From: the human T2T-CHM13v2.0 reference genome, Homo sapiens
Assembly (NCBI RefSeq): GCF_009914755.1
Contig: NC_060942.1
Direction: 5' to 3' (one strand)
Length of the DNA stretch: 64,000 nt
Shown here: in pieces, positions 1 through 7,100 of the stretch
Position numbering within the stretch: the first letter of the stretch is position 1
Layout of the letters: every line of letters starts with the position of its first letter
Translations under genes and position numbers: made by a program
The notes under the pieces: generated by a model
Told to the model about the DNA's origin: nothing
Seen by the model: only the letters and a program-made list of their open reading frames with translations
Database searches by the model: none

Positions 1-122
1 CTAAGAAACTTCTTTGGGATATATGTACACAACTAACGGAGTTGAATCATTCTATTTATAGATCAGTTTTCAAACGCTCTTTTTATGGAATCTGTAAGTG
101 GATATTCGGATAACTCTGAGGA

Positions 123-139
123 TTTCGTTGGAGACGGGA
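123..139 (+). promoter_or_regulatory. CENP-B box (representative intact site)
   Basis: tTTCGttggAgaCGGGa matches the nTTCGnnnnAnnCGGGn core. Similar intact sites occur at ~1144, ~10257, ~15525 and ~20288. Confidence 0.9.
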
Positions 140-1309
140 TTACATATAAAAAGTAGACAGCAGCATTCTCAGAAGCTTCTTTGTGATGTTTGCTTTTAAG
201 TCACAGAGTTGAACATTCGCATTCATAGAGCAGGTTTGAAACACTCTTTCTGTAGTATCTGGAAGTGGACGTTTCGAGCGCTTTCAGGCTCATGGTGAAA
301 AAGGAAATATCTTCCCATAAAAACTAGACAGAAGGATTCTCAGAAACTTATTTGTGATGTGTGTCCTCAACTAACAGAGTTGAACCTTTCTTTTGATACA
401 GCAGTTTGGAAACACTCTTTTTGTAGAATCTGCAAGTGGATATTTGGATAACTTTGAAGATTTCTTTGGAAACGGGAATATCTTCATGTAAAATCGAGAC
501 AGAAGCATTCTCAGAAACTGCTTTGTGATGTCTGCATTCACGTCACAGGGTTGAACATTCGTTTCATAGAGCAGTTTTGAAACACTCTTTCTGTAGTATC
601 TGGATGTGGACACTTGGACCGCTTTGACACTTACGGTGAAAAAGGAAATATCTTCCCATAAAAACTAGACAGAAGCATTCTCACAAACTGGTTTGTGATG
701 TATGTCCTCAACTAAGAGAGTTGAACCTTTCTATTTACAGAGCAGTTTTGAAAGACTCTATTGGAGAATCTGCAAGTGGATATTTGGAAAGCTTTAAGGA
801 TTTCTTTGGAAACCGGAATATCTTCAGGTAAAATCTAGACAGAGGCTTTCTCAGAAACTTCTTTGTGATGTGTGTCCTAAAGTAACAGAGTACAACCTGT
901 CTTTTGATACAGCAGCTTGGAAACACTCTTTCTGTAGAATCTGCAAGTGGATATTTGGATAGCTGTAGCCATTTCGTTGGAAACGGGAATATCTTCATAT
1001 AAACTCTAGACAGAAGCACTCTCAGAAACTACTTTGTGATATCTGTATTCAAGTCACAGAGTTGAATATTCCCTTTCTTAGAGCAGGTTTGAAGCCGTCT
1101 CTTCGTGGAATCTGCGGGAGGATATTTGGATAACCTTGAGGATTTCGTTGGAAACGGGATTACATATAGAAAGTAGACAGCAGCATTCTAAGAAGCTGCT
1201 TTGTGCTGTTTCCTTTTAAGTCACAGTGTTGAACATTCCCTTACATAGAGCAGGTTTGAAACACTCTTTCGGTAGTATCTGGAAGAGGACATTTCGAGCG
1301 CTTTCAGGC

Positions 1310-1326
1310 CTATGGTGAAAAAGGAA
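1310..1326 (+). promoter_or_regulatory. pJalpha box (representative A-type monomer site)
   Basis: ctatggtgaaaaaggaa sits at the position homologous to the CENP-B box. Confidence 0.75.
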
Positions 1327-3468
1327 ATATCTTCCCATAAAAACTAGACAGAAGCATTCGCAGAAACTTGTTTGTGATGTGTGTCCTCAACTCACAGGGT
1401 TGAACATTTCGTTTGACACAGCAGTTTGGAAACACGCTTTTTGTAGAATCTGCAAGTAGATATTTGGATAGCTTTGTGGATTTCTTTGGAAATGGGAGTA
1501 TCTCCATATAAAACATAGACAGAAACATTCTCACAAACTGCTTCGTGATATCTGCATTCACGTCACAGAGTTGAACATTCCCTTTCATAGAGCAGGTTTG
1601 AAACACTCTTTCTGTAGTATCTGGATGTGGACACTTGGAGCGCTTTGACGCTTACGGTGAAAAAGGAAATATCTTCCCATAAAAACTAGATAGAAGCATT
1701 CTCACAAACTGGTTTGTGATGTAGGTCCTCAACTAACAGAGTACAACCTGTCTTTTGATACAGCAGTATTGAAACACTCTTTCTGTAGAATCTGCAATTG
1801 GATCTTTGGATAGCTCTAACGATTTCGTTGGATAAGGGAATACCTTCATATAAAATCTAGACAGAGGCACTGTCGGAAACTGCTTTGTGATATCTGCATT
1901 CAACTCACAGAGTTGAACATTCCCTTTCTTAGAGCAGGTTTGAAACACTCTTTTTGTAGTATCTGGAAGTGGACATTTGGAGCGCTTTGACGCCTTTGGT
2001 GATAAAGGAAATGTCTTCACATAAAAACTAGACAAAAGCATTCTATGAAACTTCTTTGGGATATATGTACTCAACTAACGGAGTTGAATCATTCTATTTA
2101 TAGATCAGTTTTCAAAAGCTCTTTTTATGCAATCTACAAGTGGATATTCGGATAGCTCTGAGGATTTCGTTGGAGACGGGATTACATATAAAAAGTAGAC
2201 AGCAGCATTCTCAAAAGCTTCTTTGTGATGTTTGCTTTTAAGTCACAGAGTTGAATATTCCCTTCCGTAGAGCAGGCTTGAAACACTCTTTCTGTAGTAT
2301 CTGGAAGTGGACATTTCGAGCGCTTTCAGGCCTGTGTTGAAAAAGGAAACATCTTCCCAAAAAAACTAGACAGAAGCATTCTCAGAAACTTCTTTGTGAT
2401 GTGTGTCCTCAACTAACAGAGTTCAACCTCTCTTATGATACAGCAGTTTGGAAACACTCTTTTGGTAGAATATGCAAGGGGATATTTGGATAGCTCTAAG
2501 TATTTCGTTGGAAACGGGGATATCTTCATATAAAATCTAGACAGAAGCACTCTCAGGAACTACTTCGTGATATCTGCATTCAAGTCACAGAGTTGAATAT
2601 TCCCTTTCTCAGAGCAGGTTTGAAACAGTCTTTTCTTGGAATCTGCAGGAGGATATTTGGATAGCTTTGAGGATTTCGTTGGAAACGGGATTACATATAC
2701 AAAGTAGACAGCAGCATTCTCAGAGGCTTCTTTGTGATGTTTGCTTTTAAGTCACAGAGTTGAACATTCGCATTCATAGAGCAGGTTTGAAACACTCTTT
2801 CTGTAGTATCTGGAAGTGGACGTTTCGTGCGCTTCGACGCCATTGCTGAAAAAGGATATGTCTTCACATAAAAACTAGACAGAAGCATTCTCAGAAACTT
2901 CTTTGGGATATATGTACTCAACTAACGGAGTTGAATCATTCTATTTATAGATCAGTTTTCAAAAGCTCTTTTTATGGAATCTGCAAGTGGATATTCGGAT
3001 AGCTCTGAGGATTTCGTTGGAGACTGGATTACATATATAAAGTAGACAGCAGCATTCTCAGAAGCTTCTTTGTGATGTTTGCTTTTAAGTCACAGAGTTG
3101 AATATTCCCTTCCATAGAGCAGGTCTGAAACACTCTTTCTGTAGTATCTGGATGTGGACACTTGGAGCGCTTTGACGCTTACGGTGAAAAAGGAAATATC
3201 TTCCCATAAAAACTAGACAGAAGCATTCTCAGAAACTTATTTGTGATGTGTGTCCTCAACTAACAGAGTTGAACCTTTCTTTTGATACAGCAGTTTGGAA
3301 ACACTCTTTTTGTAGAATCTGCAAGTGGATATTTGGATAACTTTGAAGATTTCGTTGGAAACGGGAATATCTTCATGTAAAATCGAGACAGAAGCATTCT
3401 CAGAAACTGCTTTGTGATGTCTGCATTCACGTCACGGGATTGAACATTCGCTTTCATAGAGCAGGTTT

Positions 3469-3479
3469 GAAACACTCTT
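3469..3479 (+). other. L1 target-site duplication, left copy (GAAACACTCTT)
   Basis: Identical 11-mer at 4095-4105. The TSD may extend to 13-14 bp (gaaacactcttct vs gaaacactctttct). Confidence 0.85.
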
Positions 3480-4094
3480 CTTTTTTTTTTTTTATTATAC
3501 TCTAAGCTTTAGGGTACATGTGCACATTGTGCAGGTTAGTTACATATGTATACATCTGCCATGCTGGTGCGCTGCACCCACTAATGTGTCATCTAGCATT
3601 AGGCATATCTCCCAATGCTATCCCTCCTCCATCCCCCGACCCCACCACATTCCCCAGAGTGTGACATTCCCCTTCCTGTGTCCATGTGATCTCATTGTTC
3701 AATTCCCACCTATGAGTGAGAATATGCGGTGTTTCGTTTTTTGTTCTTGCGATAGTTTACTGAGAATGATATTTTCCAATTTCATCCATGTCCCTACAAA
3801 TGATATGAACACATCATTTTTTATGGCTGCATAGTATTCCATGGTGTATATGGGCCACATTTCCTTAATCCAGTCTATCATTGTTGGACATTTGGGCTGG
3901 TTCCAAGTCTTTGCTATTGTGAATAGTGCCGCAATAAACATACGTGTGCATGTGTCTTTATAGCACCATGATTTATAGTCCTTTGGGTATATACCCAGTA
4001 ATGGGATGGCTGGGTCAAATGGTATTTCTAGTTCTAGATCCCTGAGGAATCGCCACACTGACTTCCACAATGGTTGAACTACTTTACAATCCCA
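3480..4094 (-). mobile_element. 5'-truncated LINE-1, L1HS Ta subfamily (Ta-0-type alleles), ~615 bp including poly(A)
   Basis: Poly-T at 3481-3493, then the reverse complement of the L1 3'UTR and ORF2 3' end. The sense strand reads GATGACACATTAGTGGG (Ta 'ACA' diagnostic) and CTTAGAGTATAAT (Ta 3'UTR G). ORF2 reads YPKDYKS (Ta-0 type, not Ta-1 YPNEYKS). It is flanked by a direct repeat. Confidence 0.93.
3699..4094 (-). pseudogene. L1 ORF2p C-terminal fragment (~130 aa), non-functional remnant
   Basis: Translation WDCKVVQPLWKSVWRFLRDLELEIPFDPAIPLLGIYPKDYKS...KLSQEQKTKHRIFSLIGGN* matches the human L1 ORF2p C-terminus. The native stop is at 3699-3701. No EN or RT domains are present. Confidence 0.93.
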
Positions 4095-4105
4095 GAAACA
4101 CTCTT
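4095..4105 (+). other. L1 target-site duplication, right copy (GAAACACTCTT)
   Basis: L1 sequence ends at ...acaatccca (4094). Satellite resumes with gaaacactctttctgtag, repeating 3469-3479. Confidence 0.85.
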
Positions 4106-7100
4106 TCTGTAGTATCTTGATGTGGACACTTGGAGCGCTTTGATGCTTACGGTGAAAAAGGAAGTATCTTCCCATAAAAACTACACAGAAGCATTCTCAC
4201 AAAGTGGTTTGTGATGTATGTCCTCAACTAACAGAGTTGAAACTTTCTATTTACAGAGCAGTTTTGAAAGACTCTATTGGAGAATCTGCAAGTGGATATT
4301 TGGAAAGCTTTAAGGATTTCATTGGAAACCGGAATATCTTCAGGTAAAATCCAGACAGAGGCATTCTCAGGAAGTTCTTTGTGATGTGTGTCCTCAAGTA
4401 ACAGAGTAAAACCTGTCTTTTGATACAGCAGTTTGGAAACACTCTTTCTGTAGAATCTGCAAGTGGATATTTGGATAGCTCTAGCTATATCGTTGGAAAC
4501 GGGAATATCTTCATATAAACTCTAGACAGAAGCACTCTCAGAAACTTTGTGATATCTGTATTCAAGTCACAGAGTTGAATATTCCCTTTCTCACAGCAGG
4601 TTTGAAACCGTCTTTTCGTGGAATCTGCAGGAGGATATTTGGATAACTTTGAGGATTTCGTTGGAAACGGGATTACATATACAAAGTAGACAGCAGCATT
4701 CTACGAAGCTGCTTTGTGATGTTTGCTTTTAAGTCACAGAGTTGAACATTCCCTTACAGAGAGCAGGTTTGAAACACTCTTTATGTAGTATCTGGAAGAG
4801 GACATTTCGAGCGCTTTCAGGCCTATGGTGAAAAAGGAAATATCTTCCCATAAAAACTAGACAGAAGCATTCGCAGAAACTTGTTTGTGATATGTGTCCC
4901 AAACTCACAGACTTGAACATTTCGTTTGACAGAGCAGTTTGGAAACACGCTTTTTGTAGAATCTGCAAGTGGATATTTGGATAGCTTTGTGGATTTCGTT
5001 GGAAATGGGAGTATCTTCATATAAAACATAGACAGAAACATTCTCAGAAACTGCTTTGTGATATCTCCATTCACGTCACAGAGTTGAACATTCCCTTTCA
5101 TAGAGCAGGTTTGAAAGACTCTTTCTGTAGTATCTGGATGTGGACACTTGGAGCGCTTTGACGCTTACGGTGAAAAAGGAAATATCTTCCCATAAAAACT
5201 AGACAGAAGCATTCTCACAAACTGGTTTGTGATGTAGGTCCTCAACTAACAGAGTACAACCTGTCTTTTGATACAGCAGTATTGAAACACTCTTTCTGTA
5301 GAATCTGCAATTGGATATTTGGATAGCTCTAACGATTTCGTTGGAAACGGGAATACTTTAATATAAAATCTAGACAGAGGCACTCTCAGAAACTGCTTTG
5401 TGATATGTCAATTCAAGTCACAGAGTTGAACATTCCCTTTCTTAGAGCAGGTTTGAAACACTCTTTTTGTAGTATCTGGAAGTGGACATTTGGAGCGCTT
5501 TTACGCCTTTGGTGATAAAGGAAATGTCTTCACATAAAAACTAGACAGAAGCATTCTAAGAAACTTCTTTGGGATATATGTACTCAACTAACCGAGTTGA
5601 ACCTTGCTCTTTATAGATCAGCTTTTTAATGCTCTTTTTGTGGAATCTGCAAGTGGATATTCGGATAGCTCTGAGGATTTCGTTGGAGACGGTATTACAT
5701 ATAAAAAGTACACAGCAGCATTCTCAGAAGCTTCTTTGTGATGTTTGCTTTTAAGTCACAGAGTTGAATATTCCCTTCCATAGAGCAGGCTTGAAACACT
5801 CTTTCTGTAGTATCTGGAAGTGGACATTTCGAGCGCTTTCAGGCCTGTGTTGAAAAAGGAAACATCTTCCCAAAAAAACTAGACAGAAGCATTCTCAGAA
5901 ACTTCTTTGTGATGTGTGTCCTCAACTAACAGAGTTCAACCTCTCTTATGATACAGCAGTTTGGAAACACGCTTTTGGTAGAATATGCAATTGGATATTT
6001 GGATAGCTCTAAGTATTTCGTTGGAAACGGGGATATCTTCATACAAAATCTAGACAGAAGCACTCTCAGAAACTACTTTGTGATATCTGCATTCAAGTCA
6101 CAGAGTTGAACATTCCCATTCATAGAGCAGGTTTGAAACACTCTTTCTGTAGTATCTGAAAGTGGACATTTCGAGCGCTTTCAGGGCTACGTTGAAAAAG
6201 GAAACATCTTCCCATAAAAACTAGACAGTAGCATTCTCAGAAACTTATTTGTGATGTGTGTCCTCAACTAACAGTGTTGAACCTTTCTTTTGATTCAGCA
6301 GTTTGGAAACACTCTTTTTGTAGAATCTGCAAGTGGATATTTGGAAAACTTTGAAGATTTCATTGGATACGGGAATATCTTCATGTAAAATCGAGAAAGA
6401 AGCACTCTCAGAAACTGCTTTGTGATGTCTGCATTCACGTCACGGGATTGAACATTCGCTTTCATAGAGCAGGTTTGAAACACTCTTTCTGTAGTATCTG
6501 GATGTGGACACTTGGAGCGCTTTGACGCTTACGGTGAAAAAGGAAATATCTTCCCATAAAAACCAGACAGAAGCATTCTCACAAACTGGTTTGTGATGTA
6601 TGTCCTCAACTAAGAGGGTTGTACCTTTCTATTTACAGAGCAGTTTTGAAAGACTCTATTGGAGAATCTGCAAGTGTATATTTGGAAAGCTTTAAGGATT
6701 TCATTGGAAACCGGAATATCTTCAGGTAAAATCTAGACAGAGGCATTCTCAGAAACTTCTATGTGATGTGTGTCCTCAACTAACAGAGTTCAGCCTTTGT
6801 TATGATACAGCAGTTTGGAAACACTCTTTTTGTACTATCAGGAAGTGGACTTTTGGAGCGCTTTGACACCTTTAGTGATAAAGAAATGTCTTCCCATAAA
6901 AACACGATGGAAGCATTCTAAGAAAATTCTTTGGTATATATGTACTCAACTAACAGAGTTGAACCTTTCTATTTATAGATCAGTCTTGAAAAGCTCTTTT
7001 CGTGGAATCTGCAAGTGAATCTTAGGATAGCTCTGAGGATTTCGTTGGAAAGGGTATTACATATAAAAGTAGACAGCAGCATTCTAAGAATCTTCTTTGT

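What the first reader, a model, noticed from the sequence alone, without database searches (positions are those of the whole stretch)
3480..4094. Young L1HS Ta-0 insertion with unexpectedly high, non-CpG divergence: a possible dated reporter of local hypermutation
Seen: Ta diagnostics (ACA, 3'UTR G) and Ta-0 ORF2 alleles. Against the L1HS consensus as I recall it, I count about 15-18 substitutions in ~600 bp (~2.5-3%), e.g. at 3507, 3556, 3604, 3628, 3631, 3650, 3665, 3735, 3801, 3811, 3853, 3863, 3897, 3966, 4082 and 4089. Many are transversions, while CpGs (gtgcgc, cccgac, atgcgg, ttgcga, gccgca, atacgt, aatcgc) are retained. Established: Ta elements are human-specific, normally well under 1% from consensus, and decay first at CpGs. 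Inference: this satellite layer mutated several-fold faster than euchromatin by a non-deamination process, which would also explain why the surrounding HORs look old.
Basis: partly seen in the sequence, partly recalled or inferred. Interest (0 to 1): 0.85.

Follow-up and report, generated by a model that had tools for sequence, protein, structure and literature searches.

The report
Over-mutated young L1 in alpha satellite
A short piece of a young, human-specific L1 jumping gene sitting inside chromosome 18 alpha satellite really does carry about six to eight times more single-base changes than its relatives elsewhere, but what caused the excess is still open.

Summary
Window 3494-4094 (minus strand) is a 5'-truncated L1HS Ta-0 3' end with a 13-nt poly(A) and an 11-bp target-site duplication. 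It is the only non-alpha-satellite DNA in 104 kb.

It has 18 substitutions in 600 bp against 29 near-identical genomic copies. None is at a CpG (7 of 7 CpGs kept), and 10 are transversions. Thirty ordinary ACA-type copies average 2.3 differences per 570 sites (maximum 6).

The variants are not older-subfamily states (0 of 18). None of the copies scored shared more than one variant in the two segments tested.

The cause is not settled.
- **For satellite-linked mutation after insertion:** the folded spectrum matches the flanking satellite's own lineage-specific changes. One of four other alpha-satellite-embedded Ta copies also has 11 differences. Hoyt et al. already report that L1Hs in monomeric alpha satellite are more diverged.
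- **For a single one-strand burst:** 16 of 18 hits fall on C or A of the L1 sense strand while the flanks are symmetric. The L1 is also denser in changes than its older flank.

Verdict: a real, moderately interesting instance of a described class.

The parts
3469..3479 (+). Left copy of the 11-bp target-site duplication, GAAACACTCTT
   Evidence: It is identical to 4095-4105. With the L1 and one copy removed, the joined 80-mer matches uninterrupted alpha satellite elsewhere in the window at 96-98.7% without gaps.
3480..3480 (-). Single c (G in L1 sense) between the duplication and the poly(A). It may be an untemplated base or an A>G change in the tail.
   Evidence: 28 of 29 compared copies have A at this aligned position. 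Not resolved.
3481..3493 (-). Poly(A) tail, 13 nt, pure
   Evidence: Read directly from the sequence.
3494..3698 (-). L1 3' UTR with 7 of the 18 private substitutions (3507, 3556, 3604, 3628, 3631, 3650, 3665). ACA is at 3585-3587 and the Ta-type G at 3502.
   Evidence: The ACA at L1 positions 5930-5932 as an L1Hs marker, and ACA/G versus GAG/A, come from PMC6354063 (passages).
3699..4094 (-). ORF2 C-terminal coding part plus stop codon, truncated at the 5' end at 4094. It holds 11 of the 18 private substitutions. The Ta-0 marker states are at 3981 and 3978.
   Evidence: The 131-aa translation is open to the native stop. It aligns to residues 1145-1275 of human LINE-1 ORF2p (8sxt_A, E 1.2e-83). 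There are 4 synonymous and 7 non-synonymous nucleotide changes.
4095..4105 (+). Right copy of the target-site duplication
2890..6105 (+). Flanking divergent alpha satellite (copy A, with the L1 excluded), used as the local comparison
   Evidence: It matches window 1-2592 (copy B, which has no L1) at 95.6% over 2593 bp across the empty site. There are 42 A-derived, 53 B-derived and 14 unpolarised differences in 2589 aligned sites.

Best explanation
This is a genuine, dead-on-arrival L1HS Ta-0 insertion: 601 bp of ORF2 end and 3' UTR, a 13-nt poly(A) and an 11-bp target-site duplication, in a roughly 20-kb divergent stretch of chr18 q-side alpha satellite. Its 18 extra substitutions are real mutations of this one copy.

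The most likely origin is after insertion. The copy was hit by the same CpG-independent, transversion-rich and C>G/C>A-rich mutagenesis that marks the alpha satellite around it. This is the kind of spectrum linked in the literature to double-strand-break repair in duplicated DNA. The rate was roughly 6-8 times that of Ta copies elsewhere.

The one-strand bias suggests that much of it came in one or a few repair episodes in which the L1 sense strand was single-stranded, not from a steady clock.

Shown: the element's identity, the count, that the variants are private, the spectrum and the strand bias. Inferred: the timing (after insertion) and the repair mechanism.
For: Identity and count.

Excess: 18 against a mean of 2.3 in 30 ordinary copies, or 2.9 in the 14 with the Ta-0 state.

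The variants are not inherited. 0 of 18 match any of 8 GAG-type or 3 older copies. In a 76-mer with 4 variants and a 71-mer with 5, the best other scored hit shares one.

The spectrum resembles the flank's. The log-likelihood of the L1's folded spectrum is -30.8 under the flank's A+B lineage changes and -36.7 under ordinary Ta copies. Permutation p is 0.87 against the flank and 0.025 against ordinary copies. C>G plus C>A make up 8 of 18 changes, against 7 of 69 in ordinary copies (p 0.002).

Flank lineage changes are also transition-poor and CpG-poor: 14:28 and 26:27 transitions to transversions, with 1 and 3 at CpG. The 26 singleton differences among the near-identical 14-kb repeats nearby run 14:12.

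In the unbiased sample, the only true-Ta outlier (L061, 11 differences) is one of just 4 alpha-satellite-flanked copies.

Literature, passages read:
- L1Hs in monomeric alpha satellite are more diverged and less methylated (10.1101/2021.07.12.451456).
- De novo SNV rate is 1.1e-7 per bp per generation in monomeric/divergent alpha satellite (10.64898/2025.12.09.693231), against 1.17e-8 genome-wide (PMC12240836).
- Segmental duplications show more C>G and C>A and fewer CpG transitions, with C>G tied to double-strand breaks (PMC10172114).
Against: 16 of 18 hits are on C or A of the L1 sense strand (binomial p 0.003). The flank's A-derived changes are symmetric, with G+T 24 and A+C 18 on the plus strand. 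Fisher p is 0.019 against flank A and 0.007 against A+B. A process acting on the whole region should mark the flanks the same way.

The L1 must be younger than the A/B duplication, because copy B lacks it. Yet it has 3.0% changes against 1.6-2.2% in the A lineage (one-sided p 0.025 to 0.14, depending on how the 14 unpolarised sites are assigned). The 229 bp just upstream differ from B at only 4 sites.

Three of the four other alpha-satellite-flanked Ta copies have 1, 2 and 6 differences. Without the studied copy the association is not significant (Mann-Whitney p 0.15).

Flank 'mutations' may partly be conversions between monomers, so the spectrum match is not clean. Some of the 26 singletons are clustered.
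Confidence: 0.45

Rival explanations
1. Burst at retrotransposition. The changes were written in while the element was RNA or single-stranded cDNA. Possible routes are damaged or modified C and A in the L1 RNA template, low-fidelity reverse transcription or second-strand synthesis, or damage to the exposed intermediate. The copy then aged normally.
For: Strand coordination: 16 of 18 hits fall on C or A of the sense strand, which is the RNA strand. This differs from ordinary Ta copies (39:30, p 0.013) and from the flanks (p 0.007-0.019). The excess stops at the element in the sense that the flanks are symmetric and less dense. Changes are spread evenly over coding sequence (11 in 393 nt) and UTR (7 in about 205 nt), and synonymous to non-synonymous is 4:7, near neutral. 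The intact 11-bp duplication and pure poly(A) fit a copy that is otherwise young.
Against: No known editing signature fits. Only 1 of 18 changes is G>A, which is what APOBEC3 acting on cDNA would give. None of the 9 C hits follows a T. A>G accounts for only 5 of 18. C>G (4) and C>A (3) are not expected from RNA deamination. The folded spectrum matches the satellite flank, which this model does not predict. L061, a second over-mutated Ta copy in alpha satellite, has no strand bias. I know of no report of L1 insertions with about 3% scattered mixed substitutions made at insertion; one literature search (listing only) showed none.
Confidence: 0.3
2. Inherited from a diverged source element. The copy descends from a Ta-0 progenitor that had itself accumulated these changes and is absent from, or unsampled in, this genome.
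For: The genome searches scored only 40 of 5151, 681 and 1626 candidates, so sharing cannot be excluded outright. The source could also be missing from CHM13.
Against: All 29 closest copies lack all 18 variants, apart from single odd bases. The best other hits in the two multi-variant segments share at most one. Synonymous to non-synonymous is 4:7 against a 20% random expectation, so there is no sign of selection on an active lineage. A Ta-0 source would face the same time limit and would itself need hypermutation.
Confidence: 0.07
3. Assembly or cell-line artefact. The bases are consensus errors or CHM13-specific culture mutations.
For: The element lies in a satellite region, and I could not inspect reads.
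Against: There are 18 substitutions and no indel in 600 bp, and the reading frame is kept to the native stop. Long-read consensus errors are mainly indels (general knowledge, not tested here). The L1 is unique sequence within 104 kb of alpha satellite. The adjacent 3 x 14,000 bp repeats align with no gap columns.
Confidence: 0.03
4. Wrong subfamily, or conversion from older L1s. The copy is really L1PA2/3-like, or a mosaic patched by older copies.
For: Such mosaics exist. L065 carries ACA but older states at 6 other diagnostic-like sites.
Against: The studied copy has the young state at 8 of 8 informative diagnostic-like sites, and 0 of 18 variants equal the state in any of 11 older copies. 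It is 32-37 mismatches from five full-length GAG-type copies and 18 from a Ta-0 copy.
Confidence: 0.02

Closest known systems
L1HS Ta-0 subfamily, 5'-truncated insertion made by target-primed reverse transcription
   Same: It has ACA and the 3' UTR G, the older states at the two ORF2 markers, a poly(A), an 11-bp target-site duplication and 5' truncation. The ORF2p C-terminus aligns to solved human ORF2p.
   Different: It has 3.0% private substitutions against about 0.4-0.5% in 30 ordinary copies. The spectrum is 8:10 transitions to transversions against 51:18, and no CpG has decayed.
L1Hs embedded in monomeric alpha satellite, reported as more diverged and less methylated (Hoyt et al., preprint 10.1101/2021.07.12.451456; passages read)
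   Same: This is an L1Hs copy in divergent, non-HOR alpha satellite with raised divergence. The intact CpGs fit low methylation.
   Different: In the passages I read, that report is a class-level statistic on RepeatMasker L1Hs, without subfamily control, spectrum, strand analysis or mechanism. Here the copy is shown to be Ta-0, so greater age does not explain the divergence.
Raised point-mutation rates in centromeric regions (PMC12240836; 10.64898/2025.12.09.693231; PMC11062924 seen in a search listing only)
   Same: The size of the effect is similar. Published monomeric/divergent alpha satellite is about 9-fold above the genome-wide de novo rate. Here it is 6-8-fold above other Ta copies.
   Different: Changes in satellites can be conversions between repeats. 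PMC12240836 says 29% of Yq12 changes match non-orthologous sites. An L1 has no local partner, and its variants match no other L1 tested.
Shift of the mutation spectrum in segmental duplications (Vollger et al. 2023, PMC10172114; passages read)
   Same: There are more C>G and C>A changes and fewer CpG transitions.
   Different: The shift there is tens of percent. Here C>G plus C>A make up 44% of changes, against 10% in ordinary copies. This is alpha satellite, not a segmental duplication.
Strand-coordinated mutation clusters from damaged long single-stranded DNA, and APOBEC kataegis (recalled from the literature; my search found no paper that I read)
   Same: The hits are concentrated on one strand (16 of 18).
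   Different: None of the 9 cytosine hits is in a TpC context, and adenines are hit as well. The cluster does not visibly continue into the flanks.
APOBEC3- or ADAR-edited retroelement copies (recalled)
   Same: A retroelement copy with an excess of substitutions that could date from its RNA or cDNA stage.
   Different: Only 1 G>A and 5 A>G out of 18. Transversions dominate.

Membership tests
L1HS Ta | ACA at L1 positions 5930-5932, where older elements have GAG (PMC6354063, passages) | tested here: met
   ACA is at ref 508-510 (window 3585-3587). All 8 of 8 GAG-pattern copies have G, A, G there. The exact 27-mer holding ACA occurs 499 times in the genome and the GAG version 3919 times.
L1HS Ta | G at the second 3' UTR marker, where older elements have A. 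'ACA/G' versus 'GAG/A' is from PMC6354063; the position number 6015 is recalled. | tested here: met
   Ref 593 (window 3502) is G in the studied copy and in 37 of 38 ACA-type copies. It is A in 8 of 8 GAG-type copies.
L1HS Ta-0 (as against Ta-1) | Older states at the two ORF2 marker sites. Recalled as G and C at 5536/5539 from Boissinot et al. 2000, which I did not read here. | tested here: met
   Ref 114/117 are G and C in the studied copy, as in 5 of 5 GAG-type copies covering the sites and in 15 of the other ACA-type copies. The majority of ACA-type copies have T and G.
Insertion by target-primed reverse transcription | Target-site duplication, poly(A) tail, and an empty site that closes exactly | tested here: met
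   There is an 11-bp duplication and a 13-nt poly(A). The joined empty site matches uninterrupted alpha satellite at 96-98.7% without gaps, and the 2.6-kb paralogue B runs through it.
Insertion by target-primed reverse transcription | Endonuclease nick at a TTTT/AA-like site (recalled consensus) | tested here: inconclusive
   The inferred nick on the plus strand is TCTT/TC, a weak match. The extra c at 3480 makes the exact junction ambiguous.
APOBEC3 editing of L1 cDNA | Excess of G>A on the sense strand | tested here: not met
   1 of 18 changes is G>A.
APOBEC3A/B kataegis | C>T and C>G at TpC, strand-coordinated | tested here: not met
   The hits are strand-coordinated, but none of the 9 cytosine hits follows a T. 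The preceding base is A in 5, C in 3 and G in 1.
ADAR hyper-editing of the template RNA | Changes almost all A>G on the sense strand | tested here: not met
   5 of 18 are A>G and there is no T>C. The other 13 are of other types.
   The A-lineage flank is 1.6-2.2% changed against 3.0% for the L1. One-sided p is 0.025-0.14. Conversion between monomers could have erased flank changes.
   For the folded six-class spectrum, permutation p is 0.87 against the flank and 0.025 against ordinary Ta copies. The strand bias is not shared (p 0.007-0.019).
   The four alpha-satellite-flanked Ta copies in the sample have 1, 2, 6 and 11 differences, against a mean of 2.3 (maximum 6) in 30 others. Mann-Whitney p is 0.15 without the studied copy and 0.05 with it.

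The most novel reading that the evidence does not exclude
The insert records a strand-specific mutation shower confined to the inserted DNA. For example, the 0.6-kb L1 may have been looped out as single-stranded DNA when its satellite flanks paired with an empty allele or an out-of-register paralogue during break repair. Alternatively, it may have been damaged as a single-stranded intermediate at insertion. That would be a germline mutational route specific to heterologous insertions in tandem repeats. It would also mean that young transposons in satellites cannot be used as simple clocks.
Probability: 0.2. Interest if true: 0.75.

Novelty: new member of a known kind. Interest (0 to 1): 0.45.

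Why it matters
Point-mutation rates in centromeric satellites are hard to measure, because changes there can be conversions between repeats. A young transposon of known starting sequence and bounded age, with no local partner, is a clean reporter.

This copy shows a 6-8-fold excess of true point changes that spare CpGs. If that proves general, it would be independent support for the high pedigree-based rates and for a break-repair-type process in divergent alpha satellite.

If instead the changes came in one strand-specific burst, L1-based dating of satellite layers would be biased for such copies. One element cannot decide this. The class-level fact, that L1Hs in monomeric alpha satellite are more diverged, is already in print.

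Tried and rejected
- **Older subfamily or conversion from older L1s:** rejected (distances).
- **Shared source lineage in this genome:** no support, with the caveat that only 40 candidates were scored per search.
- **Other 'ACA' copies that looked as diverged:** L065 (17-19 differences) is a mosaic with older states at 6 other diagnostic-like sites. L058 has its differences clustered in the first 162 bp, with a 9-bp deletion, beside an older L1. Both were dropped from the baseline.
- **Genome-wide paralogues of the flanks:** the right-flank search scored 1 of 11,538 candidates and gave only 77-89% hits at chr18:15.96 Mb. The left-flank search was not scored. Only the local paralogue B was usable.
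- **Other reporters nearby:** none. The L1 is the only non-alpha-satellite stretch in 104 kb.
- **More alpha-satellite-embedded Ta copies:**
  - The six chr2:94.0-94.3 Mb hits are one insertion duplicated six times in non-alpha-satellite DNA.
  - Three pericentromeric candidates from a 43-hit sub-lineage pattern were not alpha-satellite-flanked.
  - A search by locus handles returned the same first 100 places.
- **HOR periodicity of the flanks by ungapped offsets:** uninformative.
- **Purifying selection on the coding part:** not seen.
- **Papers and other sources:** the published Altemose paper could not be fetched by the ids I tried, and bioRxiv supplements are closed. The tables listing L1s in alpha satellite and their divergence (Altemose Table S15, Hoyt Table S22) were therefore not seen and may bear on generality.

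Full report
**What is there**

Window 3481-4094 is the only stretch in 104 kb (the window plus 40 kb upstream) that does not match alpha satellite. On the minus strand it is the last 601 bases of an L1. It comprises 393 nt encoding the C-terminal 131 residues of ORF2p, the stop codon, the 3' UTR and a 13-nt poly(A).

The translation is open to the native stop. It aligns to residues 1145-1275 of solved human LINE-1 ORF2p (8sxt_A, E 1.2e-83).

The element is flanked by an identical 11-bp direct repeat, GAAACACTCTT, at 3469-3479 and 4095-4105. When the L1 and one repeat copy are removed, the joined site matches uninterrupted alpha satellite elsewhere in the window at 96-98.7% without gaps. A 2.6-kb paralogue (window 1-2592, 'B') also runs straight through the empty site at 95.6% identity. 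This is a precise, 5'-truncated retrotransposition event.

**Checking the count**

A search of the window's own genome scored 40 of 5151 candidates: the element itself and 39 others, all at 97%. Nine of the 29 fetched copies differ from it at exactly 18 positions with no gaps over 614 bases.

Column by column, the element differs from 28 or 29 of the 29 copies at 18 sites inside the L1. In L1 sense the changes are:

| Change | Count |
|---|---|
| A>G | 5 |
| C>G | 4 |
| C>A | 3 |
| C>T | 2 |
| A>C | 1 |
| A>T | 1 |
| G>T | 1 |
| G>A | 1 |

That is 8 transitions and 10 transversions. None is at a CpG, and all 7 CpGs of the majority state are intact.

**Subfamily**

The exact 27-mer carrying ACA occurs 499 times in the genome. 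The same 27-mer with GAG occurs 3919 times.

I compared 39 ACA-type copies, taken in coordinate order from chr1 and chr3, with 8 GAG-type copies. Sites that separate the two groups in this segment are ref 169, 291, 323, 449, 457, 508-510 and 593, plus 114/117, which split the ACA group itself.

The studied copy has the young state at 8 of 8 informative sites; ref 323 has mutated to a third base. It has the older state at 114/117, shared with 15 other ACA-type copies.

It lies 18 mismatches from a Ta-0 copy and 32-37 from five full-length GAG-type copies.

**How unusual it is**

For the baseline I excluded the two marker sites, one recurrent CpG site and the 27-mer used for selection. I dropped four short copies. 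I also dropped two copies that are not plain Ta: L065, a mosaic with older states at six sites, and L058, a chimeric alignment beside an older L1.

- Thirty non-satellite ACA-type copies carry 0-6 differences from the majority state per 570 sites, mean 2.3.
- The 14 of these with the Ta-0 state average 2.9.
- The studied copy has 18 (Poisson P 6e-11 and 2.5e-9).
- The ordinary copies show 51 transitions to 18 transversions, with hits spread over A 21, C 18, G 18 and T 12.

The excess and the odd spectrum are both real.

**What it is not**

None of the 18 variant bases equals the state in any of 8 GAG-type or 3 still older copies. Older-subfamily membership and conversion from older L1s are therefore out.

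Two short segments were searched against the genome, one holding 4 variants and one holding 5. In both, the best other scored hit shares a single variant. No source lineage is visible in this genome, with the limit that only 40 candidates were scored per search.

Of the 11 coding changes, 4 are synonymous, against a random expectation of 20%. There is no sign that they arose in an active, selected lineage.

I could not inspect reads. Even so, 18 substitutions with no indel in unique sequence is not what assembly error looks like (inference).

The flanking satellite lineage 'A' and its paralogue 'B' were polarised with two more distant copies. The results, over 2589 aligned sites, were:

| Class | Changes | Transitions : transversions | At CpG |
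|---|---|---|---|
| A-derived | 42 | 14:28 | 1 |
| B-derived | 53 | 26:27 | 3 |
| Unpolarised | 14 | 3:11 | not counted |

C<->G changes are about a quarter of each derived set.

The L1's folded six-class spectrum cannot be told apart from this (permutation p 0.87). It is distinct from ordinary Ta copies (p 0.025), and C>G plus C>A make up 8 of 18 changes against 7 of 69 (p 0.002).

The 26 singleton differences among three near-identical 14-kb repeats a few kb away run 14:12, with 2 at CpG.

In the unbiased sample, the one remaining true-Ta outlier is L061 at chr1:121.79 Mb. It has 11 differences, not ancestral, at 6:5 transitions to transversions. It is one of only four copies flanked by alpha satellite; the others have 1, 2 and 6.

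In print (passages read):
- Hoyt et al. report that L1Hs in monomeric alpha satellite are more diverged and less methylated than L1Hs elsewhere.
- A 2025 preprint gives 1.1e-7 de novo SNVs per bp per generation for monomeric/divergent alpha satellite, against 1.17e-8 genome-wide.
- Vollger et al. describe more C>G and C>A and fewer CpG transitions in duplicated DNA, and link C>G to double-strand breaks.

The 6-8-fold excess here is of the same order.

**Evidence against a simple regional clock**

Sixteen of the 18 hits are on C or A of the L1 sense strand, which is G or T of the plus strand. The expected share from composition is 54.5%, giving a binomial p of 0.003. This grouping was chosen after seeing the data.

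The flank's A-derived changes are symmetric (24 against 18), as are those of ordinary Ta copies (39 against 30). Fisher p is 0.019 and 0.013, and 0.007 against flanks A+B together. L061 shows no such bias.

Copy B lacks the L1, so the insertion is younger than the A/B split. Yet the L1 has 3.0% changes against 1.6-2.2% for the A lineage (p 0.025-0.14). The 229 bp just upstream differ from B at only 4 sites.

Conversion between satellite copies could have erased flank changes, so this is not decisive.

A one-strand pattern confined to the insert points to a single-stranded intermediate. That could be at retrotransposition or in a later repair episode. No known editing signature fits: 1 G>A, no TpC context, and 5 A>G.

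**Setting**

The L1 lies in a roughly 20-kb divergent zone. Upstream is an array with a period of about 1.87 kb and 97-98.7% identity. Downstream are 14.6-kb repeats that are 99.7-100% identical. The very young repeats nearby neither require nor exclude it.

**Verdict**

The element is an instance of an already described class, L1Hs in divergent or monomeric alpha satellite with raised divergence. This analysis adds that greater subfamily age, conversion and a shared source lineage do not explain it. It also adds that the changes spare CpGs, are rich in C>G and C>A, and sit almost entirely on one strand.

I favour satellite-linked, repair-type mutation after insertion, probably episodic (0.45), over a burst at retrotransposition (0.30). 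One copy and a sample of four comparable elements cannot settle it.

Noticed in passing
window ~10800-64000: Alpha satellite here is organised in 14,627-bp repeat units that are 99.7-100% identical. Three 14,000-bp copies align without a single gap column and differ at only 26 singleton sites, some of them clustered as if converted.
   Followed up: partly
40 kb upstream of the window (L031-L034), about -40000 to -12000 in window coordinates: A regular array with a period of about 1,872 bp and 97-98.7% identity between units. It gives way to the divergent zone that holds the L1.
   Followed up: no
L061 (G000:C1:121788740-121791766), L1 at 1010-1609: A second ACA-type L1 (Ta-1 marker state) flanked by alpha satellite. 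It has 11-12 private, mostly non-CpG substitutions per 600 bp and no strand bias.
   Followed up: partly
L065 (G000:C1:147345282-147348308), L1 at 1419-2018: An L1 copy that carries the Ta ACA but older-type states at six other diagnostic-like sites, including the second 3' UTR marker. It looks like a mosaic or converted element, and it shows that ACA alone can mislabel a copy.
   Followed up: partly
L090-L095 (G000:C2:94.009-94.310 Mb): One Ta insertion present six times with the same non-alpha-satellite flank, in two clusters about 290 kb apart with 6-12 kb spacing. The insertion was evidently carried along by a pericentromeric tandem duplication.
   Followed up: partly
L035-L042 (G000:C18:15.957-15.968 Mb): The right flank of the L1 has its best scored genome-wide matches (77-89%) on the other side of the chr18 centromere. 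This is as expected if the two sides carry mirror-image old layers. Only 1 of 11,538 candidates was scored.
   Followed up: no
L058 (G000:C1:106462211-106465237): A Ta copy whose first 162 aligned bases hold about 12 differences and a 9-bp deletion, next to an older L1. It is probably an alignment running into the older element.
   Followed up: no
window 3480: A single c (G in L1 sense) lies between the poly(A) and the target-site duplication. It could be a further A>G change in the tail or an untemplated base.
   Followed up: no
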